Positions 5,750-54,115 of a stretch of DNA of 64,000 nt are shown in pieces. The stretch covers positions 9,424,001 to 9,488,000 of the forward strand of contig JBHGNT010000009.1 of assembly GCA_043228905.1 (NCBI GenBank). Direction: 5' to 3'. The position numbers and the translations under genes were made by a program. The stretch comes from Azolla caroliniana. Taxonomy: Eukaryota > Plantae > Polypodiophyta. Below the pieces are notes generated by a model that worked only from the letters and a program-made list of their open reading frames with translations, made no database searches and was not told where the DNA came from. Every line of letters starts with the position of its first letter. Position 1 is the first letter of the stretch.

Positions 5750-7175
5750 GTATATCTTCGTCGATTATCTATTCAAGTTCTAGGAGTTTTTAGAAAGTTC
5801 TAGACCTAGAAGGTTCTAGAGGATTTTAGAATATTCTCCAAAATATTCTTCAGAATATTCTAATGCATGTACTTCAACTTGTAACCTCCTTGGTCCCTTT
5901 CAAGGGATTCAACACCAGTCATTGACACATCAATCTAGTATTCTCGTTTCATGCCATATTGTCTCCTTCTTCATCTATGTCTTCATGCTCTCCATAGCTT
6001 CCTAAGTTCATAGTCTCATCACTCACAACTTCTAGAGTTCCTAGCCTTTTTCTTTCAGTTCCACGTTCGTAGCCTTATGGATCGTAGCCTCGTCATCCGT
6101 GCTCCGTCATAGTCCGTGGTTGGTGTGTCCGTGACTATTTGAATCCCGTCCAACTGGAAGCACCACCCATTTCCGTTATCACCCTTGCTTCTAGAGTTAC
6201 CATCATCACTATCCTTGCTTCTAGAGTTACCATCATCAACATCCTTGTCTTGGACATCACCATTTTCAACACATCTTCACCCAACCTTCATCATCATCAA
6301 CACTACTTTGTATGTTCTTTCATTATCATCATTGTTCCGCCCTCTTCATTGTCATTGTTATCATCTATAGGTATCATTTTGCATCACGATTTTGGCGAGG
6401 ACCGATTTCTATCCCTCACCGTCTAGTTCTGGTGGGGGTCTCAACCGGTCACTTTCATGGTGGGGATCGAATCATTGCTCGCTTGCACTCCATTTTCATT
6501 TTAGTTCAAGTCTCGCTCCAGTTTCCGTGGGTGAGGACCGATTTCGATCGCGCAACTTCTAAGTTCCAGTTGGGGTCACAACCACTCACTTTCATGGTGG
6601 GGATCGAATCATTGCTTGCTTGCACTCCATTTATATTAAATCAGTTCAAGTCTTGCTCCACTTTCCTTTGGTGAAGACCCATTTCGATCGCTCACCTTCT
6701 AGTTCGGGTGGGGTTCACAACCACTCACTTTCCTGGTGGGGATCGTGTCAGTTTCTCGCTAGCACTACCGTTTCTGCCGCGTTTTGGGTCAACCTCAACT
6801 ATTTACCCTCTCATGATAGAAGAAGTCGAGTCGACCACTTCACCTGCTCTTCTTCGCTCGTTGGTGTTCCAATTCCCAGTGAGGACCGCACATGGTCACT
6901 CACGCCCGTCAGTGTTCCAGTTCCCGATGAGGACTGCACATGGTCTCTCACGCCCATCCTTGTTCCAATTCCCGGTGAGGACCACACATGGTCACTCACA
7001 AATGTCGGTGTTCCAGTTCCCGATGAGGACCGCACATGCTCGCTCATGCTCATCGGTGCTCCAATTCCCGTTCACCCCTACACCATGCTTCCAAAAAGGC
7101 GGTCGTGAAGGGGAGGATAATGTCACGACATAGTGATATCAAATACATAGTTGGTGAGGATTGAACGTGCAACCT
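5750..7175 (+). mobile_element. Non-autonomous chromovirus-related LTR element (partial 5' LTR, non-coding repetitive interior, PPT, truncated 3' LTR); left boundary approximate
   Basis: TTCTAGA-rich tract and ttcaacaccagtc are shared with the chromovirus LTRs. PPT gaaggggaggataa (7107-7120) followed by TGTCACGA mirrors aaggggataa-TGTCATGA of the 11844 element. Confidence 0.6.
6397..7075. repeat. Internal tandem arrays: ~136-140-bp unit x~3 (6397-6750) and 48-bp unit x~4 (6864-7075)
   Basis: gaggaccgatttc recurs at 6397, 6533 and ~6673. The 48-bp unit translates as repeated VFQFPVRTAHGHSRPS. Confidence 0.85.
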
Positions 7176-9299
7176 CACAAGTGAATCAAACCTACATTCT
7201 TTGGTCAACGATCTATCCGACCGACACCAACTTCTTGGTAATTGTCAGGATGTCCAACACGTTCATGAGTCTCCCCTTCTGTCCGACATGACTAAGAGGA
7301 ACTTCGCCAACATGTTTGATTGGGTGCGGAGTGTCGTCTCAGGTTTCAACCACTCCTGGTTGATTTGGTTTCTCTAGATATGAGAACCATTCTTCATGGC
7401 TCTTCATATGATTTGACGCTCCGATGTCAACATACCACACCTCGTCCGATTGTGAGGTGGTCTTGTTCATCGAGTTTGCCTTGTGTTTCACCACAAATGC
7501 TGGCCCCTTTCCATTTTTTCCGCTTCCGGATCCATCTGAACCTTCAGCGTAGTGCGATCTGTACCAGTTTTCGTGTTCGGCTTTGTCTGATCCGGATTTG
7601 TCTTAATCGGCATGCTTCTTCCAACACTCGCTCTCCTAGTGGCATTTCTGGCCACAATACCAGCATTTTGTTTCAACTTTCCCTTGTCGGTTTCCGGCGC
7701 CGCCTTGACTCCCCCTGATTGTGGAGGGTTCGGAACTATTGTGGCAACACCTCTATGCCTTCTTTCCTACTCTTGTTGACCGCCACCATTGCGTGCCGAT
7801 CCACCTCGCTTGCCACGCCCACGAGGCCGATCCGCCTCCGTGTACAACATCCAGTTGTCTGATTGAGTGGTTCTCAACCCACTCGCGTGGTTTTCTTCAA
7901 CCATCAGCATCGACTGCAAGTGAAAGAAGAATGGTGGCTTCTCCCCTGTGCATATTGCCATCCAGATTGGCCCGTACCTCTACGAGAGACCACTGAGATA
8001 GATCTGTACCATCTCGTCTTCATCCACTATCACGTTGACGGATCCCAGGGCATTGTTGATCTTCTTTATTTTGGTGGTGTAGTCGGTGACTGACATATCC
8101 TTCTACCAGATATTGTTGAGCTCTTGTTGATGCTGCATTTTTCAGGCCGTGGTACTCGTGGCGAAAATCTTTTCCAAATTTTCCCAGGCCTCCAGCGTTT
8201 TTGCATATCTGATGTTGCCCAACATCTGGTCATGCACACATGACGCAAGGCAGTACAACACTCTGCTCGTTTCTTGTTCCCACACCGGGAATTGCTTGTG
8301 TGCCGGTTCCGGCGCTACCTCATTTTCTCCTTCTACATAACTCCAATAGTCGTGGCCGAGCAGGTACTGATACATCTTGTACAACCAAGATGCATAGTTG
8401 CTCTGGTCGAGCTTTTCTATAGCAAGCGAGCTTGCCATTCTTCTGTCCATGTCTTTCTTCTTCTTGTCTGTTCTTACCGGATGTTAGGGTTTGTATGAGT
8501 TAAGCGTTTCTTCTTCTTGTCTGTTCTTACCGGATGTTAGGGTTTGTATGAGTTAAGCATTTCTTGGCATCATAGGATACTCAACCCTCTCACTTTGATA
8601 CCATGTAAAGATTTACATCTGGAAGCTCGTAGACACAACCGGCTTAGTTGGATAGCAAAAGAAATAGAACAAAGGTTTAATGGAAAGCTTAAAAGAATAC
8701 ATAGAGAATGCGGGAGAGACAAAGAGAGCAAAACACACAAAACTCTATTTTCAAAAAAATACTCTTTACATACTAATGTTCTCAAAGAGCACTTTTATAT
8801 AAGACCTTAAAAGGACTGATAGAAGTACTGACAAGTACTCCAATGCTCGTACTGAGCGACAAGCACTAATTCCCAAAAATATTCCTATGTACTAGGCTAG
8901 GATCATAGGCCTCTAACAGCCTACCGGTATCACACCGATCAAGTTCCCTCCGATCCGGCTCTCCGTTCTAGGTCTTCATCCGATCCGGCTCTCTGTGTTG
9001 GGAGACAGGTCCCTCCGGATGGGAAAGGAGAAGAACAGTGTTGATGAACAAACTCAGCCGAGGCCGAAACCGTATAATGAGTACCCAGCTACGAAGAGCC
9101 GGATGGTGCAGACCCGGTGAGAAGTGCTCACCGGATGAAGAGACATATTCGTAAATATGTTTCTGAGAGTCCATCATGGCTATATTTGTAAATAGCTGAA
9201 AAGTCATATTAGTATAAATATGACTTAGGGCAAACTTTTAGAATTAGTGAGAGTCGTTGTCATTCTTGTTGGTGAAAGAAGAGAGTGCGCGCAACTGTG

Positions 9300-10433: not shown

Positions 10434-11859
10434 CGGAATCCATCTCTTGATTCTTTACAATATGTTATTGTGGTTTTTGTTGAAGGCTAGGGAATGTAAT
10501 TTGACCTGCTTTATGATTTTAAGTACTACGATAGCATGTGCGCTAAAGATGTTCAGGAACTTTGTTGCGCTAGAGAAGAACTCTGAACAAGTCAACTTCA
10601 TCAAAATGGGGATCCAAGGTATCTAGGATTGTCCAAATCAAGACCAAGAAGTTGGAGGAAGCATATAAACGAAACTGAAAGATTCCAACTAGCATCCCGA
10701 GAACCAATGGAGCCAATTGATGAAGAAGTAGGGGATCTTGTTGACTCGAATAACGTATTAGAGTCTGAACAGATCTTAAATTCGAATGCGTGTACCGAAA
10801 ATGCCAATGAGGACGATCTACAACAACCAACTAGTCCAGAAGAGCCCATCGTTCCAGACTTGTTGATAGATTGATTGCATATGGCTTAATGTAATTGAAC
10901 ATGATGGATTTGGAACTCATTGACTTAATTAATGCAAGCTATGATTTGTATACTTAACTCTTTCGTTCGAATATATGGTCGAGTTTGATGTTAATTTAAG
11001 TTGTGTCATATATTTCTTAAGTACATATGTTGTTGCTTACCTTTATATGGATACATGTATGAGTCAATCATTCGATAAATGCATAAATCGTTGGTATATA
11101 TGTTACAGTGTGTGTGTGTTTAACAATCAATAGGAAGGCAAAATAAACAATTCTTTATTGTATTTGTTCTTGGCCTTTACTCTCTTGGTGTCTAGTATAT
11201 ATATTGTTTGAATCATTGCTAAATGTATATAGTTACATATTAATTGTTGAACTTTGCCACTCCTAGAATCTTCGATAGTAGTGTGACTTGATCATAGTTG
11301 TTGAACTTTGACACTCTAAGAATCTTCGATAGTAGTGTAACTTGAGACAAAAAGTATAGTCAGAGGAACTTTATGATCTTAGACTCTCGTGGAATGTTAG
11401 ATAGTATGTGTCAAGAAAGAGAGAGAGAGAGAGAATTGAAAGGAAAGTATTATATTGCATTGTAAGAAGGATTACAAATAGTAGGCAAAAGAGAGCTATA
11501 GAATGGCATTGAACCAATTTGGTTTTGGGATGATTGATAGATCCCTATTTATAAGTCCCTGTAGAGTAAATAGAACATTCTAGAATCTTCTAGGACATTC
11601 TAGAGTATAGAGTAATCTAGAAGGTTTCTAGAGTATTCTAGAAATTTCTAGTATATAGAACACTCTAGAATATTCTAGGTCATTCTAGAATGTAGAGTGA
11701 TAGAATATTCTTATGATATTAGATTATATATTCTAATAACTATACATATAAGTATATTATTATAATGGTTAAGGATTTGATATGTGTATAACAAGGTTGT
11801 GGGTTCAAATCCTTTCGAGGCATAATATGAGTGTCATCATGACATTATCCCCTTTTTTC

Positions 11860-31225: not shown

Positions 31226-31243
31226 TTCACGTCGGGTTCACCA
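31226..31243 (-). promoter_or_regulatory. Primer-binding site complementary to plant tRNA-Trp
   Basis: TGGTGAACCCGACGTGAA, 4 nt from the LTR. Same 18-mer at 38601-38618. Confidence 0.85.
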
Positions 31244-31656: not shown

Positions 31657-31698
<42 letters not shown>

Positions 31699-31928
31699 GT
31701 CCAGAAACGGTCCGGCAGCACTTCGTCCTCTCCGCGCGAGATCCCCCCGCACTTCTATTCTTCCTCTTCCCTTTTATAGCCCGTCAAGAGGCCGTTTGGC
31801 ATTAACTGCATACCCCCGAATCTACCCACCTAGGATCCTCGTATGTACTTCTTGGCGCGCGTGTGTGCAGAGCCGTTTCCCACGCCTTGTTCCTCCGATT
31901 CCTCTTGTGGGCGGTTTTCTTCACGACA

Positions 31929-36879: not shown

Positions 36880-38640
36880 AAAGTGTTGCCTCTTAGGAAA
36901 CACGGGCCGTGGTCAGTCCTTCGACCTAGACCCCAAGGTGGGTGTGGAACAACGAACAAAGCTTAATCATACTACGTAAGGAGAGAACCTCTGTGACTTC
37001 GTTGTGTGTAAGGGGAGACGGCTACAACCAACTCCTTCTCACAGGTTGCGCTTACGTACTACTACGATTACGTATCCGAGACACGGACACTGAATTAGCC
37101 GTAGCTATACACAGAAACTCAGAGAAGATAGTATTCTATTATCAGGCGTTCTTTTTACAATTCCCAAAATTTACACACACCTCCTTACGAGGTTTTCTAC
37201 CCTTTATATATGCAGGGTCTAATTAGCTGTTCACGCGTACCCGCGTGAACCGTTACATACGTTACGCTTTATATAGTTTCTTATTCCTACGCTTTTGGCC
37301 GTCGGTTACTATTCCGGCGGACAACAAAGAGACCCATTCTTTTTCTTAACGAAGAAGATAGGAGCACCGGAAAGGGATCTAGAATGTCGAATGAATCCGT
37401 TTGCCAGATTCTTGTCGATATATTCCCGCAAAGTCTCTAGCTCTACAGGGGAGAGATTATAAATTGGGCCCCATGGAGGTTCTTTCCCTGGTTGTAAGTC
37501 AATAGGGCAGTTGTATGGCCGATGCTCCGGCAATGTATTGGCCTTCACCTTATTAAGAACTCTTTGTATTTCTCTAGTAGTTTAATGTCCGCTTCATGTA
37601 AGGTGAATGATGGAGTTGCTACTATTGCGAATATGAACATGTCCTCATTCCCCCCTTCCTCACATAACTGACGTAGAGAGATGGTCGATAACTTATGGGA
37701 TCTAGTATCAAATGTCGGAGATTTGAGGGATGCGAGCCTTGTTCTTGTTTCTTAGATTTCCTCAATTGTTCTTTTCATCCAATCAATCTTCGGGTTATGG
37801 AGTTCAAACCAAGGGAGACCTATAAGTATTGGGTGTTCCGGACTGTGAACAATGTTTAAAGATATTATGCTTGCCAAATCGCCAAGAACTATACGAATTG
37901 GCTTGAACTCTTCAACTATATCACCTGATGCTATGGGACGGCCATCAATGACTCCTACAGTGTCGTGAAGAAAACCGTCCACGAGCGGAATCCGTGCACC
38001 GGAGCGTAGAAACCGACTCTTCATGCACGTGCGCCTTAAGTTGTACATAGGAGATCCTAGGTAGATTCGGTAGGTAGGGAGTAAAGGGGAAACGGCTCCT
38101 TCCTTGCCTATAAAAGGAGGGAGACGAGGAGGGTAGAGGGATCGCGGAGAGTCGAGGACGAAGTGCTGTCGGTTTGCGTGCGAAGGCTTCTCTCTCTCTC
38201 TCTTTCTGGTTGCAAACGCCATAGCTTCCTTCGGTGCAGGTTTCGGGAGGCTCGCGCTGCTCTGAGGAATGCCCGAGTGCTTCCGGCAGCACCTCCAACC
38301 TACTCCTTCCTCTCTGTGCGTCTACGAGCAGGTATCGGCATCTGTTCGCCGGCCTGTTCGGTTGTAACCGGCTTCGTGTTTTGTTGTCTTCGTGTTCTTG
38401 TTGTTTGTCTTGTCAATACATACATACATTCGTGTCTTTCTGCGTCGCTGTCCCACTTGCGTCTTTGCGTCGAAGGGCCGTGTCCCTGTGGATCTACGCT
38501 CGCACGTAAACGGATTCTTCCCCTCCTCTCTTGCTCTTTGGTACAGGACCCCCGAGGTTCCGCCTCGTTCCACGCATTCGCGAGGAATACCTCGACATCT
38601 TGGTGAACCCGACGTGAAGGAGGCGGCAGAAGAGCAGAAG

Positions 38641-40767
38641 ATGAGGGGGTCGGATCTTGCAGAGGCCATGGCTTCGGCCGTGGATCGGATATTGAGCACA
38701 CGCGAGGGCACCGGCGCCCTCGACAGAGCCATTGAGGCGGTTGTCGGTACGATCGGCCGTTTCAGCGGAAAGGATGCTACGAAGTATTTGGCGTCCTACG
38801 GGGCGAAAATGCTGATGCGGGACATTCTGGAAGAGAGGCGTCTTGCCGGGTTCCCTCGAGTGGCGATGCCGAGCATCCATGCGGAGGTGCTCAAGGTACG
38901 GGCGGAGAGCCGTACCTGGGAGGAGTTCGAAGGCTGACTCCTAGAGAAATATGGGCTGGACGACGCGCTCCGGCTTTCGAAACGGGACTTCATGGAATGG
39001 GTGGAGTCCCCCGGCAAAGGAAGAAACGCGTCGGCACTCCTCCGGGAGTTCGAAGAACGCTTTGCGCGCCTTTTGGCGCTTCACCGAACCATTCTGGATA
39101 CGAGCCGGGTCCTGCTGTTCGTCAAGTCGGTGGACGAGCGGGACCGGGATCAAGTCGGCTCCTTGCTGGAAACCGAAGACGGGCTGACGACCGACTGGGC
39201 TACGGTTAAGAGAGTCTGTGGCCGTTTCGATAAACGGCGAGAATGGGCTGACAACGGGGCGGCCGGTGCGGGCTCTGTCACAGCAAGGAGGCTTGAACCG
39301 GTGCCGCAAGTGCGAAGGGAAGAAACCTGGGAATGGCTCGAAACCGGTCCGGCTTCGACCAGCATGGTCAATGGCTCGTCCGGAGGAGCAGCGCTGGAGG
39401 AGTTGACGCGGGCGATAAAGGATCTCCAGATCGCCCAGACTCGAAGGGAAGGCGGCGAACCGGCTCGTGACCGACGGCCGGCAGCGGGGAACAGGTGCAT
39501 GTGGTGCGACGAGGTCGGCCACATTCAGAAGGACTGCGGCGATTTCGCAGAGGCGTTGAGGAATCGGGTGGTGTACCTGTGGGAAGGTCGGGTGCACGCC
39601 GGCGACACCAGGAGGGCCCTGAACCAAAACGACGGGTGAGGAGGAATGAAGAGACTGATGGAAGAGGCAGCGGCCCGACACGTGGAGGCCATCCACTACT
39701 CAGCGTCGGCCGGCATTCGGGTCGGGGGCAGCGAGGCCCGAAAGGAGGGCAAAGACGGATTCTGGTCAGCAATGCTGGAAGGTCTTGCCGGCGCACGGCT
39801 AAGGAAAGATGAAACGGACCGCGCTGAGAGACGGGTCCGGGAAATAACCGAGTGGAGCGATCCGGTCGAGGAGAAGACGGGCTATGTAGAAGCCGCCTGC
39901 CGGAACTACGAGGCTCTGGCTGAAGACAAACGGGTGGGGAAAACCGGAGCGGCTGGGCCCTCACAGCGGTACGAGACCCGATTCGGGCAACGACGGAACG
40001 ATGCCGGTGGGTCCAGCCCGCAAGATAACCCCAGGAAGGGCGGATACCGACTGGGGACGGAAATAGAAAGGACTACAGACCTACGAAAGGTACTAGAAGA
40101 ACGGATCCTCGACAACAAAGTGGAGTTGTCATTGCGAGAGGTGCTAGGGATCGCCAAGAAGGAGTTCCACGACTCCATTGTGGACCTGGTGAAACGGAAG
40201 AGGCTGTCGACGGAGACGGAACCGGAAAGACCGGTGGAGGTGAGGACAACGCACATCGACGACATGGCGATGGAAGACGAGTGGGCGGAGAGCCACTATT
40301 CGAGGCCACACTAGGCCCGAGCGACCACGGAGACCCCGGTAAAGATCGGAGATGTTCAGGAACCGGTGGTGGCATTGGTGGACCACGGTTCGGAAATAAA
40401 CCTGATGTCCATGGACTTCTATAAGAAGGGGAAGTGGTCGATCAACACCAAGCACGGGTGGAAGATACGGGCGGCGGCGCGCGCCACCGAGGAACTGCAT
40501 GGGGCCTGCCCGAACGTGCTAGTCAAGATCGGCGACGTCGAGGTTGACCAGCACTTCTTCGTACAGGAGACGTCCTCGCACCCGGTCATATTAGGGGAAC
40601 CATACATCACGGCGGCGCGAATGGAGACCAAGGTGCTGGACAACGGTTCGGCCTACGTGAGGGTCAAAAGCCAGGACGGGCGCCATTCGGTCCAATTTCT
40701 GACAGTGCGACCGAACCACGAGCGAAACCGTGAATCCCTCAGTGGCGAGAACCAGGAGGATTTTTAG
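38641..40767 (+). pseudogene. Gag-protease with three in-frame stops
   Basis: Stops ending at 38937, 39639 and 40314. Otherwise colinear with 29077-31203. Confidence 0.9.
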
Positions 40768-43700
40768 AGAGGGCTGCCAAGGCGTGGGGCCGAGATAGTC
40801 CGGACACTCGGGAAAGTCCCCACGACTGTACGATAGGTAGGGGATTTTGCTTCTCCGACAATGGAGGGAGTATGATAGTCGGCATCGTCGGCCGAGAAAA
40901 GACAAGGGCGGAAGTGCGACTTCGAGCGTGCGGAGTTCTCGGCCCGGACGAGGAAATCAGCGGAGCCATGGAGGCGGTCTCCTTCGACGACACCTTGGGA
41001 ATGCTGAGGAAGGTAGCCGGAGAAGACCTTAATGAAGACCGGACGATACCGGTATGTTCCGAAGAGATGTACGAAGTCATCGCGAACTTCAGTCGGGGGC
41101 TCGGGTCGGATCGAACGGCCCGAGTTAGCACGAGGTACAAGACTGTGCACCGGAAGGTAAGGCCAGTCGCGGCACCCTTGCCAGAGGGCAGCGAGTCCCG
41201 AATCAGAGGGGTGGCGTCGGACACCAGTTTACGAGATCCGGCCTGCATAGGACACACCTTCACCGACGGAACGCTCCGGGAGCTCAAAATCGGTGGGGGC
41301 GGGTTCCTACTGCCAGCGGAGGAAGACCGGTTTCGGAGAATGCTCGGAAGGCACGGGAAAGCCTTCGCATTCTCACCAGAAGAGATCGGGTGCGTAGACC
41401 CGACGATCGTGGAGCCGATGGTGATATTCACGGTAAGGCATGTACCGTGGAATCTCAAGCCGATTCCAGTACCGAGAGCTCACATCCCGAAGTTGATGGA
41501 GCTATTGAGGCAGAAAGTCGATATGGGTATTCTCGAACCGTCGAGCGCGCCATACTCGAACCGATGGTTTACCGTACCAAAGAAAAACGGAACATTGCGC
41601 TTCATTCAGGACCTGCAGCCGGTCAACATAGTGACCATCCGGAACGCAGGAATCGGACCGACCATAGACGAGTTCGCGGAGGCCTTCGCCGGAAGGTCGA
41701 TTTACTCGGTCGGTGATCTGTACTCGAGGTACGACCAGTTCCAGCTAGCCGTGGAGAGCAGAGACATTACGACGATGCGAACTCCCCTCGGCCTAGTGCG
41801 AATGTGTACCCTGCCACAAGGAGGGACCAACTCGGTGGCCCACATGGTGAATGCAATGAACAAAGTACTGAGGGATTGCATCCCGGACATCACCATGCCG
41901 TTTCTAGATGACATCCCTATCAAGGGGTGCCCGGTGGAAGGGAAGGACGAGACACTCGGGCCGGACGGATGCCGGCGATTCGTAGCAACACACATCGACG
42001 ACTGCGAGAAGGTGCTACAAAGGCTAGAGGATGCGAGGCTCACCTTCTCCGGGGAGAAATCGGCCTTCGGGCAATCAGAAATCCTGGTGGTCGGGCACCT
42101 GTGTGGACCATATGGCCGGAAGCCGTCTCCGGCAAAGGTAGAAGCCATCTCCGCGATGAAGACCGATTGTAGCTCGGTTACGGAAGTTCGGAGGTTCCTA
42201 GGGGCATGCGCGTTCTACCACATATGGATCCCGCATTACGCCCACGTTGCGGAGCCGCTATACGGGTTGCTGAAGAAAGGGCGAAAATTCGAGTGGCGAG
42301 ACGAGCACACGGAGTCGGTCCGGAAGCTGAAGGAAGCTCTTGCGGCAGCACCGGCGCTCCGGAAGGCTGTCTACGAGAAGGGTACCCCGGTATACATAAC
42401 AGTGGATACGAGTCCGACCGGGATCGGATGGGTCGTCAACCAAGAGGACAAGAACGGCATTCGGTTCCCGATCCGATTCGGCACGAAGGTTCTCAGTGAA
42501 CGACAGCGAGGGTACGCCCAGGTTAAACGCGAACTCTGGGGTATCGTTTCGGCAGTAAAGGCCGACAAAGACTACCTGATCGGGACAGAAGTGGTTATCG
42601 AGACGGATTGCCTGCCGATTCTCGACATGGTTTCCGGATGCGCGACACCGGACCTGGCAATGCTCCGGTGGATAGCGTACATCAAGTCCCTGGACCCGGA
42701 AATACGGCACATTTCCGGAAAGGACAACGCCATGGCCGACATGCTTTCGAGGCCGAGGTTTGATGACGAGGGCGGCATGGTTTCGGAGGACGAAGAAGTC
42801 GGCGTGGACTTCTTCGAGGCGGCGTACGTGACGACCGATGGGGCGAGCACTCCGGCACTTAACGGCTTCGACGAGAGCAAGTACGACGGCGAGTGGCTAC
42901 AGATCGGTGGATTTTGGAGGACAATGACGTCGGATGCGTCATGGACGAAGGACGAGGCCAACTGGATCCGGAAGAAAGCATACCGATTCTTTCTCCGGGA
43001 TGGATACTTATGGAAGCACCCGAAGAAGAGGAACGGCGTCCCGCTCCGGGTGGTGGCGATGAAGGAAGAACAGGAGGAGCTGTTGACGGCCTACCACGAC
43101 AGCCCTTGGGCTGGACACCGTGGAACGTGGGCCACGTTCGAGAAGATAAAGGGGAAGTACTGGTGGCCGGGACTGTATCGGGACGTGCATCGGTTCGTGA
43201 AAACTTGCGAGAGCTGTAAGATGCACTCTGTAGTCCAACATCGGGACGAGCTTCACCCTACGTACCCTCCGACCATCCACTTCAAATGGATGATAGACCT
43301 GGTGACGATGCCGATGGGAGTAGGACAGATGCGGTATCTAGTCCTGGCTCGGGAAGACCTGACGAACCAAGTAGAAGGCCGAGCCCTTCAGAACAAAACG
43401 ACCGCAGCCGTATGTCGGTTCCTAATCGAGGACGTGATATGCCGGTACGGGTGCGTCGGGAAGATCGTGGCTGATCGCGGGGAGTTGGACGCCGAAGAAG
43501 CTGAAGAGCTATTCGACCGGCTAGGAGTCAAGCTCTCGCTTACCACTGCGTACAATCCGGAGGCGAATGGAAAGGTGGAGCGCGGACACGGACCGATTGT
43601 CAAGGCGTTAGTTCGGGCATGCGGAGGTCAAGTCGGGAACTGGCCGCGGCTATTGCCTTACGCGTTGTGGGCTGACCGGACTACGCACAGTTCGGCAACC

Positions 43701-44231
43701 GGATTCATGCCGGCAGAGCTCATGTTTCGGCAGAAGCCGATCATGTCGATCGAACGTACGATCTCCTCATGGGCAACCGTGGATTGGAGAGACGAGATGA
43801 GCCGGGAGGAACTGCTGGCGGCGCGTATACGACAGCTCGAGCGAAGACCGAAGGACGTGGAGCGGGCTGCGGAAAAGCTTCGGGAAGCAAGGATGAGGAA
43901 CAAAGCCCGGTTCGACCGAACACACCGGCTCCGACCGAAGAAGATCGAGGAAGGCGATTGGGTGCTAGTCTACGACAGCAGCCTCGACAACCAGCACCGA
44001 GCGACGCGGAAGTTCGCAAGAAGGTGGTTCGGGCCTTACGTGGTACAAAGCGCCAACGACAATGGGACGTACCATCTGGCGGAACTCGACGGCACGAGAG
44101 TGGCGATACCGGTAGCTGGGAAACGGATCAAAGCGTTCAAGAAGCGTCACGACGACGAGCCGGATCCGGTTAACCTGGACCGGGACGACGAACGATCCGA
44201 AACCGAGGAAGAACCGACGGGCGGGGAATGA
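40764..44231 (+). CDS. Gypsy pol (RT-RNase H-integrase), intact frame
   Basis: 1119-aa ORF from 40872, open upstream to the slippery site at 40758-40764. Confidence 0.9.
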   Translation, partial: LERAAKAWGRDSPDTRESPHDCTIGRGFCFSDNGGSMIVGIVGREKTRAEVRLRACGVLGPDEEISGAMEAVSFDDTLGMLRKVAGEDLNEDRTIPVCSEEMYEVIANFSRGLGSDRTARVSTRYKTVHRKVRPVAAPLPEGSESRIRGVASDTSLRDPACIGHTFTDGTLRELKIGGGGFLLPAEEDRFRRMLGRHGKAFAFSPEEIGCVDPTIVEPMVIFTVRHVPWNLKPIPVPRAHIPKLMELLRQKVDMGILEPSSAPYSNRWFTVPKKNGTLRFIQDLQPVNIVTIRNAGIGPTIDEFAEAFAGRSIYSVGDLYSRYDQFQLAVESRDITTMRTPLGLVRMCTLPQGGTNSVAHMVNAMNKVLRDCIPDITMPFLDDIPIKGCPVEGKDETLGPDGCRRFVATHIDDCEKVLQRLEDARLTFSGEKSAFGQSEILVVGHLCGPYGRKPSPAKVEAISAMKTDCSSVTEVRRFLGACAFYHIWIPHYAHVAEPLYGLLKKGRKFEWRDEHTESVRKLKEALAAAPALRKAVYEKGTPVYITVDTSPTGIGWVVNQEDKNGIRFPIRFGTKVLSERQRGYAQVKRELWGIVSAVKADKDYLIGTEVVIETDCLPILDMVSGCATPDLAMLRWIAYIKSLDPEIRHISGKDNAMADMLSRPRFDDEGGMVSEDEEVGVDFFEAAYVTTDGASTPALNGFDESKYDGEWLQIGGFWRTMTSDASWTKDEANWIRKKAYRFFLRDGYLWKHPKKRNGVPLRVVAMKEEQEELLTAYHDSPWAGHRGTWATFEKIKGKYWWPGLYRDVHRFVKTCESCKMHSVVQHRDELHPTYPPTIHFKWMIDLVTMPMGVGQMRYLVLAREDLTNQVEGRALQNKTTAAVCRFLIEDVICRYGCVGKIVADRGELDAEEAEELFDRLGVKLSLTTAYNPEANGKVERGHGPIVKALVRACGGQVGNWPRLLPYALWADRTTHSSATGFMPAELMFRQKPIMSIERTISSWATVDWRDEMSREELLAARIRQLERRPKDVERAAEKLREARMRNKARFDRTHRLRPKKIEEGDWVLVYDSSLDNQHRATRKFARRWFGPYVVQSANDNGTYHLAELDGTRVAIPVAGKRIKAFKKRHDDEPDPVNLDRDDERSETEEEPTGGE

Positions 44232-47200
44232 AGGCTGGACCGGTTTTCTCCGTCCCAACACAATTTGGCGCATGCCGGTGGATGCGCGGTTAGGTGGGGG
44301 CGGATGTCGTGAAGAAAACCGTCCACGAGCGGAATCCGTGCACCGGAGCGTAGAAACCGACTCTTCATGCACGTTCGCCTTAAGTTGTACATAGGAGATC
44401 CTAGGTAGATTCGGTAGGTAGGGAGTAAAGGGGAAACGGCTCCTTCCTTGCCTATAAAAGGAGGGAGACGAGGAGGGTAGAGGGATCGCGGAGAGTCGAG
44501 GACGAAGTGTTGTCGGTTTGCGTGCGAAGGCTTCTCTCTCTCTCTCTTTCTGGTTGCAAACGCCATAGCTTCCTTCGGTGCAGGCTTCGGGAGGCTCGCG
44601 CTACTCTGAGGAATGCCCGAGTGCTTCCGACAGCACCTCCAACCTACTCCTTCCTCTCTGTGCGTTTACGAGCAGGTATCGACATCTGTTCGCCGGCCTG
44701 TTCGGTTGTAACCGACTTCGTGTTTTGTTGTCTTCGTGTTCTTGTTGTTTGTCTTGTCAATACATACATACATTCGTGTCTTTCTGCGTCGTTGTCCCAC
44801 TTGCGTCTTTGCGTCGAAGGGTCGTGTCCCTGTGGATCTACGCTCGCACGTAAAGGGATTCTTCCCCTCCTCTCTTGCTCTTTGGTACAGGACCCCCGAG
44901 GTTCCGCCTCGTTCCACGCATCCGCGAGGAATACCTCGACAACGGTTATTGGGTTCAGGAGCTTATTCAAGAGGATGTTTTGTGACAATGCAAATTCACG
45001 ATCCATGAAACAAGAGTTGGGTCCAGAATCTAGGAGGGCGGACGCTAGGACTCGATGACATGTAGATGTGGTAAGCTCAACTTGTGTAGAGATTGATGAA
45101 ATGGAACCACGACTAGGAACTAACTCTACATAGCTAGTATGGTCCAACCAAATGGCTCCTTTTTTGGCCGGACTTACTTGTTTAACACATCCTCTAATTG
45201 GCTCAAGACATCGAATCTATTCTCATGGCATGGACTATTAGGCTTAGTTATGTTATTAGAAGTAACAATGGAACTTGAAGTAGGGTTGTCATGTGCACTT
45301 ACTTGGTATACTTGACGTCTAGGTTTATGTGGAAAATTCACGGCTATATGTCCTGGACCACCACAATATAGGCATAGGCGGTGCGCTCGACGTCGTTGCT
45401 TCTCAGCATCTGATAAAGGCCCTCAACATTGTGTTGAATCTATTTCCATTGGAGTTGGGTCATCCCTTGTAATGGTTCTGGAAACTTGTGAAGGAGTTGC
45501 GACGACAAAAGCGTAAGTCTGTTCTAGTTGGTGGCGTAACATTTGTTGGCGTTCAAAACATCGCTCAAGTAGGCTATTATCACATCACACGGCTCAACTA
45601 ATGGCCTCAATAAGAGACTTCAGATCTTCATGGAAAGTAAGAAGAAGATCTTTGACATCATTACACAAACCTTGATGGAATTGATCCATTAAGGCCGCCT
45701 CATCCCAAGGGATATCGCATGCCAAGAGACGGAAATCAGCTACGTAAGCTGACGCGAGACGATCTCCTTGTCAGAGCCTTCTAATCTTGTTTATCGTTGT
45801 CCTAGTGTTGTCGGTGTCTCCGAAATTAGCTTGAAACTCCTTAACAAATGCCTTAAAATCCCCCACCAATGGTGATTTCTTCTCGAGGAGTGGTGCAAAC
45901 CATGCTAATGTCGTACCACATAACAAGGTTCCCAGTAATCCCACACGAGCAGCATCATTTGGGTACCTATTGGGATGTAGCTGAATAACCAAATGAAATT
46001 GATTCAAAAAGCCTCGAAATAAAGACCTCGTACCATCAAACTTAGCGTGGAGGCTAATCTTTGGTTCTCTAGGGGAGTTTTGAGCCCCCGACGTTTGTTC
46101 TCGTAATGATAATATAGATCCCTATTTATAAGTCCTGACTACTATGTAACACACTCTAGTGGAGGCTAATCTTGTGAACACACTCTAGGAATTTTCAAGT
46201 GTGGGAACACCCGACTACTATGTAACATTACTAATGTGTCAAAAGACTTAACTTCTATGACACATAGTTAGTAGGTAGTTAAAGTTCCCTCCTCTTTCCC
46301 AAGGGGTCGTTGTAGTAAGAGAATATAGAGAGAAGGTGACTATATAAGCACCTTCTCCCCCTCTTTTGTAGTTGTTGGTTATTCCTTTTTCTTGTGAATA
46401 CAGTTTCTTGTTTTCTGTCTATCCTGTGTCGACTCTCTCTCTCTCTCATATTTGACCTCCAAAGACGATAATATAATCTCTCTCTCTCCCCCCCCCCCCC
46501 TCTCTCTCTCACACACACACACACATCCCTATTCTGTTGCACATCACACTCAGTTTTTTACAATTGTTGTGTCAACAAGATTCAGAATGTATCATGGTGA
46601 TCAACAGCATTCTCCGTAAGGGAACCAATGCGAGTCATACCTTGGATTGTTGCACTTTGAAGGGTCACTACTAAGTCATGAAGGGTCGTCTTCCTCTACA
46701 CTAGCTAGTTGAGGGATTAGAGGACATCATTCCAAGGGTAAAGACCATGTTCTACATCAACATATATCAAGCATGGAGGATTCAAGAAACACAACAATAA
46801 AAGGAAGAAATGTGAATGGATAAAGATAAGGGATTCTTTCTAAAGGTCAAAAGTAGAAAATTGTGCAAGTCATGGATAAGAAGATTATGATAGAGAAAAA
46901 TGCTCACAATTTCTTCATATGAACTCCAAATTGAGCAAAGAAAGTTTTGTTGAAACATGGTCAAGGAGAGCTTTTTATGAATATCTTCTATGCAATAGTG
47001 GCGGAGAAAGCAAGTTGGCATCGAAAGAGGATAGCTAGGTCTCTATTTAGCCTACTTTATAAAATCGTGGATTCAATAATATCCATTACAAAACAAAGAT
47101 AGACTATAAAAAATGCAAGTTCAAAAAACATATAAATTTATATGGGAGAGAAAGTATTGAGGGGAATTATTAGAAAAAGAAAAATTGAGATTTAGAAGAA

Positions 47201-47626: not shown

Positions 47627-48641
47627 CAAAGGCCCCTTTTATATGAGAGCTCTTTCCATTTTATAAAATTAGTAGTAAACCTTAAAGGGTTCCATTCACA
47701 TTACAATTCATTGACCATTAACCATTATCTGCCAAATAAAGGGTCATTTCCCAATAATTACAATATGCCCATGTTTCTTACATGAATTTGACTTGTGACC
47801 AATAATCCTGATATCAACTAGCAAGATTGAGAAATTGCAAGCACCTCACTTTTGCATGCTCCTATTTTTTTATCTTCCTACGGCGCCTGGTACGAGCAAA
47901 ATACACATCACCATGTATGTTCATTCTTATCCCCTTCATTTAATCCATTAAAGTCCACATAATGTCATTCATAGTCTGAATAGGATTTAAACACTTGACC
48001 TTTTCATTTCGAAAATAAGTTATTGTTAAGTGAGCTATGTCTTTTCGTTGTCTTAAGCTTCATCTTGTCGCATGTCCTTCTTGTGATACTTTTACCCTAT
48101 ATATTCTTCAATCTCTCATATATCTTGAGTTTGACAATTTTCCTCTCAGGAATGCCTCACATCACGACATTGGAATGGTTCATTAATGACTAAAGCACCT
48201 GCTTATATTTAACATGATTAGACCCCATGCATGTTCGCCACCTCACATCCATACAAGTTCTCAACTTGGCATTCATGCAAGCACTGTCAGGAATAGTACT
48301 AAAACAGAGATGGAATTAGTACTAAGAAGAGTAGTACTATTAGTACTAAGAGGACGGGACTGCGTAAGATTCCCGAGAGAGAGGAAGTGAGAAGAGGAGA
48401 GAGAGAGAGAAAATAGGATGATGACAGCAGCTCTTATATTATATGAAAGATAAGTACAAATCGACTAAGAGGCTTAAGACTGGTGTTGAACCAATTTGGT
48501 TCAACATAATGCTTAGTGCCTTCTTTTATAGTGTTCTCAGGAATAATCCTGAAGCTTCTAGAATGTTCCAGAGAAATCTGGAATATACATTACTTTCTTA
48601 TAATAAAACATAAATGAAAATAATATTCTATGAATTACAAT

Positions 48642-48707
48642 AGATGGTGAGATGGTTAAGAGCTCGACCCATATACCATAAGGTCATGGGTTCGAGTCTT
48701 GCCATCT
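48642..48707 (+). ncRNA. tRNA-like Pol III A/B-box module in LTR (second copy 53880-53945); not a functional tRNA
   Basis: TGGTGAGATGGTTAAGAGC...AAGGTCATGGGTTCGAGTC with tRNA spacing. Closed by an 11-bp stem AGATGGTGAGA/TCTTGCCATCT. Confidence 0.55.
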
Positions 48708-48725
48708 CATGACACTATCTCCCCC

Positions 48726-51700
48726 TTAAAGACGACGAGTGGAACGAGTCAGCGCTACTTGCGGACCGGGTTTGTCCGGATATTTTCGGTGGAAATCAGC
48801 AAGAAGATCTTGTGCATTGGCAACATTTTCGACGGGTTCCCAAGTACGTTCGCTCGGACTATAACCGAGCCAATCGACCAAGTAATAGAGTTTGTTGCGA
48901 ACAAGTTTGGAATCGAGGATGGCAGCAACTTCATACTCCGGGCCGGCGTCCAACTCCAGTGGGGGCGGCGGTGGTGTCACACGATCGGGAATGGTGTTTG
49001 CTTTATAAGGTTCAAGAAGAGAACAATGGAAAACCGGATGTATCTGAAGCTGCGGAGGGAGATCAAGGCGGAAGGTGACATCATTAATCTTCCCCGTAAT
49101 ACGGAAAGGACCGAGTCGTCGATAATCCAACTTGTCGCACGGTCGAGTAGTCTTGATGTGACGACGTAAGAGCCATACTCGATCTCCGATGGCAAAAGAG
49201 GAGGGAATCCGATGACGATCCGCATAAGTCTTCTGTGTGTGTTGAGCATGACGAAGGTGAGTAGAGAGATCCATCTGGATCTTGCGTAGCCTCTCCAAAT
49301 GATCCTCGGCACGAGGGTTGGTAGGTAGCTCCGGAGTGTCGATCACCGACCAGCGAGGATGGAAACCGGTATAAGCGAAAAATGGGGAGACCCGAGTCGA
49401 GGAGTGAATAGCATTATTATACGCAAACTCCGCAAAGTGGAGAATCTCGGCCCAATCGTCCTGTTGATAACTCAGGAAACACCGGAGATATTGCTCCAGC
49501 GTTTGGTTTGTTCGTTCCGCCTGTCCGTCGGTCTGAGGATGGTAGCCGGAGGAGAGGTTGCAGGAGACCTTGAGCATCTTGAAGAGATGCTGCCAAAATT
49601 TGGAGACAAATTGCGGGCCTCGGTCACTGATAATACTGTCTGGGAGGCCATGATGCCGAAAAACCTCACGCATAACAAGAGCGGCGGTTTCCTCGCTAGT
49701 GATGGCTTTAGTACATGGCACAAAATGTGCCATCTTCGTATATCGATCGACGACGGTTAGGATAGCATCGAACCCTTTCGAGACCGGCAGATCTGTGATA
49801 AAATCAAGACAAATAGACTGCCATGGCTTACTTGGAATTGGTAAAGGTTCCAACAAGCCATATGGACGGTGTCGTGGCATCTTTGCTCGGCAGCAAGCAT
49901 CACAGGTCCGAACGTAGTCGTCGACAAAACGGCGCATGTGGGGCCACCAAAAAGATCGCTGCACTAGCTCCAACGTCTTAGTACTACCGAAATGTCCCGC
50001 CGTATGGGTGTCGTGACAATGTTGGACAATTTGAAGGCGACAGGAGCAATCGGGGACATATACGCGCTTTTTAAAGAATAACAAACCATCATGATATTCG
50101 AATTGTCGGTAGTCAATACCTGGTTGTTGAGACTGAGAACAGGATGCCCGAGAAGTATCAATGTGCGCCAGGATGTCTTGAGCAAAACTATCCGTCTTCA
50201 AGGTTGCACGTATGTCATCGATAATCCGTGAATCCATCGGGGTGTGAAAAATCCGCGTCGTGTGCAATCGTGTTGGTCCCAAGATTACTTGCTTTTGATT
50301 ATCAAATGTTGCTTCACCAGGACGAGGTGCAAGATATGAACGTCGTGATAGTGCATCTGCTTTTCCTTGCTGCTTCCCCGGTCGATATGTGATTTTGAAG
50401 TCGAAACGCGTGAGGAATTGCGCCCACCGAGCTTGCCGTCGATTTAGTACACGAGCGTTCTGAAAATAAGCAAGATTTTTATGATCGCTGAAGACAATGA
50501 CCTGATGTGGAGAGCCCTCTAAGAAATGCCGCCATTGTACAAATGAATCCACGATGGCTAATAACTCCTTGTCATGTATTTCGTAGTTGATTTCTGCGAC
50601 ATCGAATTTGCGCGAATGGAAAGCCACCGGATGCAACTCTTCTTTATCACCTTGTTGAGAAAGGATGCTACCGAGGGCGAAATCTGATGCGTCGGCCTCC
50701 ATGATGAATGGTTTGCTTGTATCCACATGAGCTAGAATCGGTGCTGATGTAAAGGCTTTCTTAAGATGCCGAAAAGCCATATCTGCTTCAATGGACCAAA
50801 GAAATGCTTGGCCCTTCTTTGTAAGTTGTGTGAGAGGTAAAATAATCTTCGAGTAATCCTGTATAAACTTACGGTAGAAGTTAGCAAAACCTAGAAAACA
50901 TTGTACATCTCGTACCGACCGTGGAATTTGCCACTCTAGTACAGTTTGGATCTTAGCTGGATCCATGGCGATGCCCTTTGAGGAGATGACGTAGCCTAGA
51001 AATTCCACTTGCTTGCAGTCAAAGCTACATTTTTCTAGCTTGGCATAAAGACCATTCTCGCGGAGTCGCTTTAGTACTAATAGTACATGAGAGTCGTGCT
51101 CTTCCTGGGTCTTCGAATAAATCAACAGATCATCCAGATAAATGATCAAACAGATATCCAAGAGGTCTCTGAATATATCATTTGCCATGTGTTGGAAGAC
51201 TGCGGGTGCATTGGTTAGGCCAAACGGCATAACAGTATACTCAAAATGCCCATACCGCGTGCGAAAAGCGGTCTTCCACTCATCTCCCGGTCGGATCCGC
51301 ACGAGATTATACGCTCCGCGTAGGTCGATTTTAGTAAAAAAACTTGGCACCATTAACTCGCTCTAAAAGACTTGATATAAGAGGAAGTGCATACCTATTC
51401 CGGATGGTGACTTTATTTAATCCGCGGTAATCAACGACAAGACGAAGTGAGCCATCTTTCTTCTTGACAAAGAAGATGGGTGCACCGGCCGGAGATTTCG
51501 AATGACGGATGAACCCGCTTGCCAAGTTCTCCTCTATGTAGGCTCGAAGGACTTCTAACTCGGTGGGTGACAGGTTGTAAATTGGTCCCCATGGTGGCTC
51601 GGTTCCTGGTTGTAAATCGATGGGACAGTCATAGGGACGGTGATGAGGAAGGGTACCGGCTTTTACCTTGTCAAATACATCGGCATAAGGATGATATTTT

Positions 51701-52305
51701 GCCGGAAGTTGTACTGAGGAGTCCTTCTTAGTAGTGCTGGAAGGATGTACTGATATGGAAAATAGGAACATTGCCTCCTTGGGTCCTTCTTCGCGTAGTT
51801 GATGGAGTGAAATGGTCGAAACTCGGCGAGTTGATTCTTGGGGTGGTCGATATCGGACTTCTCTTGTTCTCCAATCTATGGCTGGATTATGTAACTCAAG
51901 CCAAGGTAATCCTAGGACAATGGGATGCTCTGGACTACTAATTATATTAAATGATATTATACACACAAAACTACCTAGGACAACTTGAATGGGTTCTGAT
52001 TCTTCTACAATATTCCCGGAAGCAATGGGACGACCATCAATGACCACTACAGATGCGGGACAAGGAAGTTTTCTTAAGGATATCTGAGAAGCTTGGGCAA
52101 AATTTCGATCCATGAAACAGGAATTAGCTCCGGAATCTAAAAGTGCTAGGACGGGTACTGGGGGAGTACTTTTAGTACTAACAATGACTTGGGCTAGGAA
52201 CACATTGCTAACTTGCTTGGAAGGAATGGAACCACTAATGGGCTGTACAGATCTAGGGCTGCTGTCCAACCAAATGGCTCCTATTTTGGCTGGACTCAAT
52301 CGTTT
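48726..52305 (-). CDS. Chromovirus pol (PR-RT-RNase H-INT-chromodomain) with a single +1 frameshift in an A7 run at ~51340
   Basis: LLDSGA, YLDD, DASD, HHCC/DDE, LGPF, and chromodomain [11 protein letters not shown]...YLVDWLGY...TWEP. Confidence 0.92.
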
Positions 52306-53453
52306 AACTCTTCATCTAATTGACTAAGGATTTCAAATTTATTTGAGATACTTGGGCTATTAGTACTATGAATACTATCTGACACTCTATTAGTACTATT
52401 ACTACTATCAGACACTCCGAAGGGAAGAATTGACTCAGGTTTAGTACAGGCGACAATTTGATTTACCTGTCTTCTTGGCCTATGGGGACAATTGATGGCG
52501 ATATGTCCTGGTCCACCGCAATAAAGGCATAATCGATTGGCACGTCGTCGTTGCTTTTCTTCTTCCGATAACGGGCCGCGTCGACGCATGGTATCGATCT
52601 CCATCGGTGTCGAAGTATTTGCTTGAGGTATGTCTCGTGCAAACGGTTTAGCCGCGACTGCGGCGTAAGTGGGCTCTGGCCTAGAGCGTGGTATCTGTAA
52701 TTGACGTTCTGAACGTCGTTCAAAAAGGCGGTTGTCACATCGAACTGCTCGACTGATTGCCTCCGTAAGAGACTTTGGTTCTTCGGGGAAAGTTAGAAGT
52801 AGATCTTTGACATCGTTTCGCAAGCCATAGCGAAACTGCTCCATTAGTGCTTGATCATCCCAGGGTATATCTGAAGCAAGTAGGCAGAAATCCGCCGCGT
52901 AGGCAGAGGCTGGACGATCGCCTTGACGCAATCGCCGGATCTTGTTGATCGCCGTCCTGATGCTGTCGGTGTCTCCAAAGCAGGCTTTAAACTCACCAAT
53001 AAAATCTTCAAAGTTATTAAGCAAGGGCGATTGTTTTTCTAGAAGCGGAGCGAACCATGCCAAGGCTGAGCCGCTAAGTAGCGTGCCTATTAGGCCGACT
53101 CGAGATGCATCAGTGGGATATCGGGAAGGATGCATCTGGATGACTAAGCGTACCTGATTAAGGAATCCCCGAAATTGCGAACGCGTTCCATCAAATTTCA
53201 CAGGAAGTCCAATCTTGGGCTCTTTATGAAATCCTTGGGGACTGGATCCTTGTTGTTGCAACGCTGCTTCGAGTTGTTGTACCCGTAACGCTAACTCCCC
53301 ATGTTGTTGTTGCGTTTGTTGTTTTTCTAGAGCGATTTGTTGCAGATCCCCTATCAGCCGTTGGTTTTCTTGTTCCAAGGCAACAAACTTTTCTTTTAGG
53401 CACTGTAGCTCGGAGAAAACGGATTGGTATTCTTGGGCGCTAACAGTAGCCAT
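52296..53453 (-). CDS. Chromovirus Gag (coiled coil, capsid, CCHC knuckle)
   Basis: 385-aa intact ORF with [36 protein letters not shown]. Confidence 0.93.
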
Positions 53454-54115
53454 AGTATAGGGGAAAGGGTAGGAGGATGAGGGAGAGTGACAAGTAGGCT
53501 AGAGGAAAAAATTGGTTCAAACTGTCAGGAATAGTACTAAAACAGAGATGGAATTAGTACTAAGAAGAGTAGTACTATTAGTACTAAGAGGACGGGACTG
53601 CGTAAGATTCCCGAGAGAGAGGAAGTGAGAAGAGGAGAGAGAGAGAGAAAATAGGATGATGACAGCAGCTCTTATATTATATGAAAGATAAGTACAAATC
53701 GACTAAGAGGCTTAAGACTGGTGTTGAACCAATTTGGTTCAACATAATGCTTAGTGCCTTCTTTTATAGTGTTCTCAGGAATAATCCTGAAGCTTCTAGA
53801 ATGTTCCAGAGAAATCTGGAATATACATTACTTTCTTATAATAAAACATAAATGAAAATAATATTCTATGAATTACAATAGATGGTGAGATGGTTAAGAG
53901 CTCGACCCATATACCATAAGGTCATGGGTTCGAGTCTTGCCATCTCATGACAAGCACGTCATTTGGTGGTCATGCATTAGCCTGTTTAAGGTGGGGATAT
54001 CGTGTGATGTTATGTATACATACAACTTTACAAGATTATCTATAACATTTTATTATAGCATTGAAGTATATAATAAAGGTCATTGGTTTAAGTCCCTATA
54101 TGATTATCTTATGAT

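What the first reader, a model, noticed from the sequence alone, without database searches (positions are those of the whole stretch)
48642..48714. Antisense tRNA-like Pol III module built into the U3 end of autonomous chromovirus LTRs
Seen: the outer ~70 bp of the LTR reads, opposite to element transcription, TGGTGAGATGGTTAAGAGC-N-AAGGTCATGGGTTCGAGTC. This is A-box and B-box sequence at tRNA spacing, enclosed by an 11-bp stem. The otherwise diverged LTR of the old chromovirus keeps the same boxes at the same place (TAATGGTTAAGG at 11763-11774; GGTTCAAATCC at 11802-11812). The truncated LTR at 7121 has a B-box-like remnant (ggattgaac, ~7158-7166). Established: small-RNA-derived LTR modules are described in non-autonomous TRIMs (5S in Cassandra, tRNA-like in Helenus). 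Inference: here a coding-competent family carries one. It could recruit TFIIIC as a chromatin barrier protecting the Pol II promoter, or make antisense RNA into the 3' end of pol and into upstream flanks.
Basis: partly seen in the sequence, partly recalled or inferred. Interest (0 to 1): 0.8.

Follow-up and report, generated by a model that had tools for sequence, protein, structure and literature searches.

The report
Backwards tRNA promoters in retrotransposon LTRs
Thousands of jumping-gene end repeats in this genome, likely a moss, carry a backwards tRNA-gene promoter whose key letters and spacing stayed fixed while the DNA around them drifted apart, so it likely recruits the RNA polymerase III machinery and would shield the element's own promoter, though no binding or RNA was shown.

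Summary
Confirmed, and wider than claimed. The outer U3 of both LTRs of a young, self-priming, Tcn1-like chromovirus carries an antisense tRNA-type A box and B box 33 nt apart. 2,363 of 3,445 PPT-LTR junctions of this type have the antisense B-box core; 3 have it in sense. Across 14 families with near-saturated synonymous sites, tRNA-invariant box letters are 87-93% identical against about 40% around them, and 15 of 17 families keep 31-33 nt spacing. Cloverleaf, hairpin and terminator are not conserved, so selection likely acts on a DNA binding site, not an RNA. An unrelated non-chromovirus gypsy lineage carries antisense U3 modules too; exact box pairs number 7,537, mostly outside tRNA genes in a sample of 30. 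Best reading: a TFIIIC/TFIIIB platform that would insulate the LTR's Pol II promoter (inferred, 0.5). Against: relatives without it transpose, and only 1 of 4 within-family tests was significant. It differs from Helenus and Cassandra (non-autonomous, sense). This scan noted similar LTR-borne boxes in fungal genomes.

The parts
48285..53952 (-). Full-length chromovirus copy (Ty3/gypsy, Tcn1-like), 5-bp target site duplication at 48280-48284 and 53953-53957
   Evidence: Pfam domains
48285..48714 (-). 3' LTR, 430 bp, identical to the 5' LTR
48638..48714 (+). tRNA-derived module in the 3' LTR, antisense to the element; folds as a family-specific long hairpin, not a cloverleaf
48645..48655 (+). A box (8 of 9 scored letters; the A at tRNA position 14 is G in this subfamily)
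48681..48684 (+). Variable-loop-like motif, conserved across families although not part of the search pattern
   Evidence: pairwise identity 0.83
48689..48699 (+). B box (8 of 9 scored letters; core intact)
48715..48727 (-). Polypurine tract
   Evidence: sequence
48726..52311 (-). pol (protease, RT, RNase H, integrase, SH3-like, chromodomain), broken by one frameshift near 51,340
52296..53453 (-). gag with CCHC knuckle
53509..53520 (-). Primer-binding site, complementary to the element's own LTR (predicted self-priming)
53523..53952 (-). 5' LTR
53724..53735 (-). Predicted self-primer and Pol II start region
53761..53768 (-). TATA-like box of the element's Pol II promoter (inferred from its place about 25 nt before the self-primer)
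53883..53937 (+). A box and B box in the 5' LTR, pointing out into host DNA
11758..11812 (+). A box and B box of the older chromovirus family (family B)
7121..7180 (+). Truncated LTR start of a related family with no matching coding sequence; only the B-box core remains (7158-7166, read on the minus strand)

Best explanation
The outer end of each LTR carries a backwards tRNA-gene promoter (A box and B box) that purifying selection has likely kept as a binding site for TFIIIC, which would load TFIIIB on the AT-rich U3 DNA behind it and so likely form an open, insulated platform between the host DNA and the element's own Pol II promoter. Shown: the boxes, their orientation, place, spacing and conservation pattern; loss of cloverleaf, hairpin and terminator; a primer site that matches the element's own LTR; occurrence in two unrelated gypsy lineages. 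Inferred: origin from a tRNA gene or tRNA-SINE head (source not identified); TFIIIC binding (about 0.75); the benefit being a barrier to silencing or to read-in transcription at the 5' LTR (the step that brings the whole reading to about 0.5). Any Pol III RNA would be a by-product with variable ends.
For: Unanchored alignment of 14 families: fixed A-box letters 0.87 and fixed B-box letters 0.93 pairwise identity, free letters inside the boxes 0.36-0.42, upstream U3 0.37, anticodon-arm region 0.41, tail 0.44. Four-fold sites 0.24-0.44 identical in 27 of 28 pairs of 8 module-bearing families. Spacing 31-33 nt in 15 of 17 families although 25-61 was allowed, while the distance to the LTR end runs from 11 to 52 nt. 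Orientation 2,363 antisense against 3 sense among 3,445 junctions. Stems lost: mean 2.7 of 7 acceptor and 1.7 of 5 anticodon pairs over 15 families. AT content 67-87% where TFIIIB would sit. The self-primer has 6 sequence variants that each match their own PBS while the B box does not follow them. Same orientation and region in a lineage with 22% pol identity. TFIIIB/TFIIIC barriers and blocks to Pol II read-through are described in yeast (PMC9540200 passages; PMC4228148 abstract); chromodomains are reported to direct integration to heterochromatin (PMC7466625 passages).
Against: No ChIP, chromatin or RNA evidence was available. The module is not essential: 10 of 27 scored families or relatives lack it, as do Selaginella SM-Tcn1 (by eye), the first 400 nt of the Physcomitrium RLG1 transcript and two young gypsy copies in this window. 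The very young subfamily in the window has lost A14 and family F has a non-consensus B box. Within-family diversity was lower at invariant letters in only 1 of 4 testable families (p 0.014, 0.38, 0.47, 0.50). Fixed spacing and the variable-loop motif are not known TFIIIC requirements (recalled) and fit a tRNA-pairing model as well. The second lineage has no chromodomain, so heterochromatin targeting cannot be the whole reason. A TFIIIB block in the 3' LTR would lie in the path of the genomic transcript. The one review passage read names such barriers for yeast and animals, not plants (PMC9540200).
Confidence: 0.5

Rival explanations
1. The selected product is a Pol III antisense RNA that runs from the 3' LTR across the PPT into the end of pol, or from the 5' LTR into the flank, and tunes expression, silencing or reverse transcription.
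For: Complete type 2 promoter pointing outward, with AT-rich upstream DNA; 12 of 15 families have a run of four T within 130 nt of the B box at the 3' LTR.
Against: That T run lies from 11 to 128 nt away, inside or outside the LTR, and is missing within 600 nt in 3 of 15 families; no shared fold; an antisense RNA would be expected to invite silencing (inference).
Confidence: 0.17
2. The sense RNA of U3 pairs with the D, variable and T loops of host tRNAs, like the 3' part of the Ty3 bipartite primer site, and helps strand transfer, dimer formation or packaging.
For: Collinear pairing would explain fixed spacing, the variable-loop motif and the strict antisense orientation in U3. Ty3 has such a U3 site (PMC5371799 passages). 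The second lineage has a tRNA-type PBS.
Against: The chromoviruses have self-complementary primer sites, not tRNA ones. Acceptor and anticodon regions are not held near any one tRNA; best matches scatter over isotypes (only 13 isotypes sampled). G-to-A changes that G:U pairing would allow are absent at G18, G19 and G53 in the anchored rows (partly circular). One family has three modules, one of them in sense.
Confidence: 0.13
3. The module is a neutral relic of a tRNA or SINE insertion, or a by-product of a terminal hairpin.
Against: Conservation is confined to tRNA-invariant letters while synonymous sites are near saturation; hairpin in 3 of 15 families only; repeated occurrence in the same orientation.
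Confidence: 0.08
4. The module is a landing pad or decoy for elements that integrate next to Pol III start sites, as Ty3 and Tj1 do.
For: Known mechanism (PMC4600332 passages); earlier notes report it for LTR-borne boxes in fungal genomes (e1-10420520, e1-10420559, unchecked).
Against: No cluster of breaks at the predicted start: 2 of 79 family-A LTR hits ended early, and the three breaks nearest that place were a partial duplication, a deletion and one unexplained truncation. 11 of 78 family-A flanks hold a B-box core, at scattered distances, and none lay in a module of another LTR. The sample is small and favours young copies.
Confidence: 0.07

Closest known systems
Helenus / TRIMp3 (Kojima 2024, PMC10886601; parts 1-4 of 6 of the text, searched passages and supplement passages read)
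   Same: tRNA-derived sequence inside LTRs, conservation centred on boxes A and B, no working tRNA.
   Different: Helenus is short and non-coding, and the LTRs seen in the supplement passages carry the tRNA part in sense, proposed to drive the element's own RNA. Here the carriers encode gag-pol, keep a TATA-type promoter, and the module points away from the element. The paper expects autonomous partners not to share such LTR sequence, but remarks that 'not a few' Repbase LTRs hold part of a tRNA and analyses only the TRIMs.
Cassandra and Ajax TRIMs (PMC10886601 as above; PMC10946416 passages)
   Same: Captured Pol III internal promoter in the LTR, kept by selection.
   Different: 5S-derived (type 1) promoter, non-autonomous, used to transcribe the element.
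Tcn1 clade chromoviruses, e.g. Selaginella SM-Tcn1 (PMC2864245 passages and supplementary file 3; PMC6317226 passages)
   Same: Size about 5.7 kb, LTR about 430-440 bp, 5-bp TSD, chromodomain, no tRNA PBS, predicted self-priming.
   Different: The SM-Tcn1 LTR begins with tandem repeats and shows no A/B module (by eye); the passages read mention no Pol III boxes.
Ty3 bipartite primer-binding site (PMC5371799 passages)
   Same: Sequence in U3 complementary to tRNA D and T arms.
   Different: Ty3 pairs with its one primer tRNA; these chromoviruses have self-complementary primer sites and match no single tRNA.
tDNA and ETC barriers of yeast (PMC4228148 abstract; PMC9540200 and PMC13578239 passages)
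   Same: TFIIIC sites that act on neighbouring chromatin and Pol II transcription; the proposed mode of action here.
   Different: Host chromosomal sites tested by experiment; here the site is mobile and untested.

Membership tests
Type 2 (tRNA-type) Pol III promoter | A box and B box in order at tRNA spacing | tested here: met
   16 of 18 letters, gap 33 nt, 0 of 200 shuffles; 31-33 nt in 15 of 17 families. The scoring patterns are recalled; their cores agree with PMC10886601 and with host tRNA genes.
Type 2 (tRNA-type) Pol III promoter | AT-rich or TATA-like region and CAA upstream | tested here: inconclusive
   AT 67-87%, but U3 is AT-rich anyway; CAA near the start in 6 of 15.
Type 2 (tRNA-type) Pol III promoter | Oligo-T terminator close downstream | tested here: not met
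   No conserved position; absent within 600 nt in 3 of 15 families.
Type 2 (tRNA-type) Pol III promoter | TFIIIC/TFIIIB binding or Pol III transcript | not testable with these tools
   No chromatin data and no stranded reads were available.
tRNA gene | Cloverleaf with paired acceptor, D, anticodon and T stems | tested here: not met
   2 of 7, 1 of 4, 1 of 5, 4 of 5 pairs in this copy; ARAGORN and Rfam negative.
Helenus / TRIMp3 | tRNA-derived boxes A and B inside the LTR | tested here: met
Helenus / TRIMp3 | Short, non-coding element (311-1,263 bp) | tested here: not met
   5,668 bp with gag and pol
Helenus / TRIMp3 | Promoter oriented to transcribe the element | tested here: not met
   Antisense in 2,363 against 3 junctions
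Chromovirus, Tcn1 clade | gag, PR-RT-RH-INT order with C-terminal chromodomain | tested here: met
   Pfam, PF00385 E 9e-14
Chromovirus, Tcn1 clade | No tRNA PBS; self-primer in the 5' LTR | tested here: met
   11-12 nt complement about 25-30 nt after a TATA-like box in 9 of 16 elements examined, 6 covarying variants
Chromovirus, Tcn1 clade | Placement with named Tcn1 references in an RT-RH-INT tree | not tested
   No named reference was held as a locus; likeness to SM-Tcn1 judged by eye. The REXdb table and FASTA supplements were too large to read.
tRNA-derived SINE | Free-standing copies with own tail and TSD | tested here: inconclusive
   30 of 30 hits of the most tRNA-like family end at an LTR boundary, but the query favoured that; 2 of 30 genome-wide box pairs are unassigned.

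The most novel reading that the evidence does not exclude
Autonomous LTR retrotransposons of this plant lineage captured a tRNA-gene promoter several times independently, always facing outward in U3, and use it as a portable TFIIIC boundary that protects their Pol II promoter from host silencing; transposon-borne boxes then outnumber real tRNA genes several-fold and are the main TFIIIC landscape of the genome.
Probability: 0.4. Interest if true: 0.85.

Novelty: new variant of a known kind. Interest (0 to 1): 0.66.

Why it matters
It would be a new way for a transposon to evade silencing, by carrying its own host-factor boundary rather than a protein suppressor. It makes an open question testable: whether TFIIIC sites act as chromatin barriers in plants. 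Thousands of near-identical LTRs, with natural box variants and module-free relatives in one genome, supply the controls. It would also change how Pol III factor binding and tRNA-like predictions are read in such genomes.

Tried and rejected
ARAGORN and Rfam found no tRNA in the window. Viral contigs held no relative. Sequencing runs: no RNA holder listed; 4 of 6 runs were laid, all contigs, which cannot show strand or start, so they are not used as evidence. Conserved hairpin rejected. Second primer site for the self-primer rejected, since the primer varies and the B box does not follow. Landing pad not supported in a small sample. A single source tRNA could not be named: this family shares 11 nt with a host tRNA-Asn, but best matches scatter. 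Fixed distance to the Pol II start not found: 156-246 nt in 13 of 15 families. One origin in the chromoviruses rejected by the AU test as sampled (p 7e-5, 19 rows; 19 of the 38 rows left out, among them two gappy rows and one module-free row nested in family D), but one gain with three losses, or LTR exchange, remains possible; the careful tree did not finish. PMC6088434 was searched for a recalled tRNA-like stretch in HIV-1 U3 and gave 0 hits, so that precedent is recalled only and not used. My note that the gypsy pair at 24845 and 37961 lacks a PPT was wrong and was corrected.

Full report
The element. Window 48285-53952 (minus strand) is a Ty3/gypsy element with two identical 430-bp LTRs and a 5-bp target site duplication. 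It encodes gag and a PR-RT-RH-INT pol with a chromodomain; this copy has one frameshift near 51,340. The family is young and large: about 105 of the 150 best hits to the integrase end lie in a frame of 1,187-1,194 aa (counted by eye). The primer-binding site is not tRNA-type; it is the complement of 12 nt that lie about 25 nt after a TATA-like box in the LTR. The same arrangement was found in 9 of 16 elements examined, with 6 different primer sequences that each match their own PBS. This is the self-priming type that Neumann et al. predict for most Tcn1 elements of mosses and club-mosses (PMC6317226, passages), which is my basis for calling the element Tcn1-like and the host likely a moss.

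The observation. The A box (48645-48655) and B box (48689-48699) are there, antisense, 33 nt apart, in both LTRs; the boxes at 11758-11812 and the remnant at 7158-7166 are also there. The score of 16 of 18 was reached by 0 of 200 shuffles. The module is no tRNA gene.

Sampling without using the boxes. A PPT-plus-LTR-start pattern gave 3,445 junctions. 2,363 of them have a B-box core on the antisense strand within 5-35 nt and 3 on the sense strand; these copies are related, so the count shows extent, not independent events. From 91 junctions in fetched loci and from metagenome relatives (79 loci, 23 with an automatically called PPT, 1 more read by eye) I chose by eye 28 LTR starts: 17 module-bearing families, 10 without, and the truncated LTR at 7121. 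The labels were therefore not blind. The 17 scored 14-18 of 18 (0 of 200 shuffles for 11 of them, 1-10 of 200 for the other 6), the 10 scored 11-13. Spacing was 31-33 nt in 15 of 17, as in host class I tRNA genes, although 25-61 was allowed and the distance to the LTR end varies from 11 to 52 nt.

Constraint. In an unanchored alignment of 14 of the 17 families, pairwise identity is 0.87 at fixed A-box letters, 0.93 at fixed B-box letters and 0.83 at a variable-loop motif that was not in my pattern, against 0.36-0.42 at free letters inside the boxes, 0.37 upstream, 0.41 in the anticodon-arm region and 0.44 in the tail. Four-fold sites in integrase are 0.24-0.44 identical in 27 of 28 pairs of 8 module-bearing families. 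Neutral retention does not give this pattern. Within families the signal is weak: invariant letters vary less in 1 of 4 testable families, as expected if most differences arose after insertion, but it is a result against.

What is not kept. tRNA stems are lost (means 2.7 of 7, 2.7 of 4, 1.7 of 5, 3.5 of 5 pairs over 15 families). The first run of four T lies 11-128 nt after the B box and is missing within 600 nt in 3 of 15. The distance to the Pol II start is 156-246 nt. The B box does not follow the self-primer. So letters and spacing are kept and the RNA product is not, which points to a DNA-binding role.

Distribution. In the integrase tree the module marks two well-supported groups separated by module-free relatives; holding them together is rejected (p-AU 7e-5, 19 rows), so two gains, one gain with losses, or LTR exchange. 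It occurs in three metagenome contigs at 57-75% pol identity and is absent from the next four at 46-56%. SM-Tcn1 of Selaginella shows none (PMC2864245, supplementary file 3, by eye), nor do the first 400 nt of the Physcomitrium RLG1 transcript (PMC7466625, supplement). A second, unrelated lineage has it too: non-chromovirus gypsy elements with a tRNA-type PBS and 22% pol identity to the chromovirus. 4 of 6 of their LTRs scanned carry antisense modules in U3, one family with two there and a third in sense further in; 0 of 5 copia and 0 of 2 unassigned LTRs had any. Genome-wide, exact A-plus-B pairs with an 11-nt A box number 7,537 (reversed pattern: 2). Of the first 30 on contig 1, 7 are tRNA genes, 8 chromovirus LTRs, 13 match LTRs of the second lineage (72-99% identity) and 2 are unassigned; all 21 LTR matches are antisense.

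Mechanism. A and B boxes bind TFIIIC, which loads TFIIIB on AT-rich DNA upstream (PMC13578239, passages). Here that DNA (67-87% AT) lies between the module and the element's TATA box, so the two promoters stand back to back, and in the 5' LTR the module faces the host flank. In yeast such complexes stop heterochromatin spread and Pol II read-through (PMC9540200, passages; PMC4228148, abstract). I commit to this reading at 0.5: binding likely (0.75), boundary benefit less sure. The main rivals are an antisense RNA (0.17), pairing of U3 RNA with host tRNAs as in Ty3 (0.13; PMC5371799, passages), a neutral relic (0.08) and a landing pad (0.07; PMC4600332, passages; not supported). Fixed spacing and the variable-loop motif remain unexplained by TFIIIC alone.

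Known work and novelty. Helenus, Ajax and Cassandra are non-autonomous and use the captured promoter to copy themselves (PMC10886601, parts 1-4 of 6 and supplement passages; PMC10946416, passages; bioRxiv 10.64898/2026.03.01.708851, one passage). Kojima remarks that not a few Repbase LTRs hold part of a tRNA, so presence alone is not new. A conserved, antisense, repeatedly acquired promoter in autonomous elements was not found in nine searches (listings, with the passages named above read); the library lacks most subscription papers, and Repbase reports, the REXdb supplements and bioRxiv supplements could not be seen. Earlier notes of this scan describe LTR-borne boxes in fungal genomes, as landing pads or as relics (unchecked); a look-up by sequence found nothing and none of the 16 notes shown for this genome concerned this module. 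Verdict: real, selected, a new variant of a known kind, function inferred; interest 0.66.

Noticed in passing
L062:4045-5132, L068:6502-7228, L228:231-879: LTRs of three families of a non-chromovirus gypsy lineage with a tRNA-type PBS carry antisense A/B modules in U3; the L062 family has two antisense modules and one sense module on either side of a TATA-like box, all pointing away from it.
   Followed up: partly
L172, L174, L203 (elements of 1.7-2.7 kb); window 7121-7180: Short LTR elements without matching coding sequence carry the module and, in two cases, a self-complementary primer site; likely non-autonomous partners of the chromoviruses. Their box spacing is looser (27 and 39 nt in two families).
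   Followed up: partly
L147:1513-2350: Three tandem copies, period 354 bp, of the pol end, PPT and first 45 nt of the LTR, with the junction inside the module next to the B box.
   Followed up: no
L410 and L416, about 1500-1560: A repeated exact A/B box pair that matches neither a tRNA gene nor the LTR families held; a candidate SINE head or another LTR family.
   Followed up: no
window 24845-31930 and 37961-44940: Two GC-rich young gypsy elements of the tRNA-PBS lineage (59% pol identity of the second to L400) have no antisense U3 module; natural controls.
   Followed up: partly
L341-L399, insertion sites: Copies of the tRNA-PBS lineage are flanked very often by CG two bases from the LTR end, which suggests a target-site preference.
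   Followed up: no
PMC2864245 supplementary file 3 (SM-Tcn1), compared with window 53509-53735: By eye the SM-Tcn1 sequence after the 5' LTR is complementary to a stretch in its own LTR, as here, although that paper reports no evidence for self-priming.
   Followed up: no
L081-L110, L320-L339: Host tRNA genes occur in tandem clusters of one isotype (Lys, Arg, Ile, Thr) with many decayed copies.
   Followed up: no
window 6391-7076 and 19205-19474: Tandem repeats of about 138, 48 and 54 bp inside retrotransposon internal regions.
   Followed up: no
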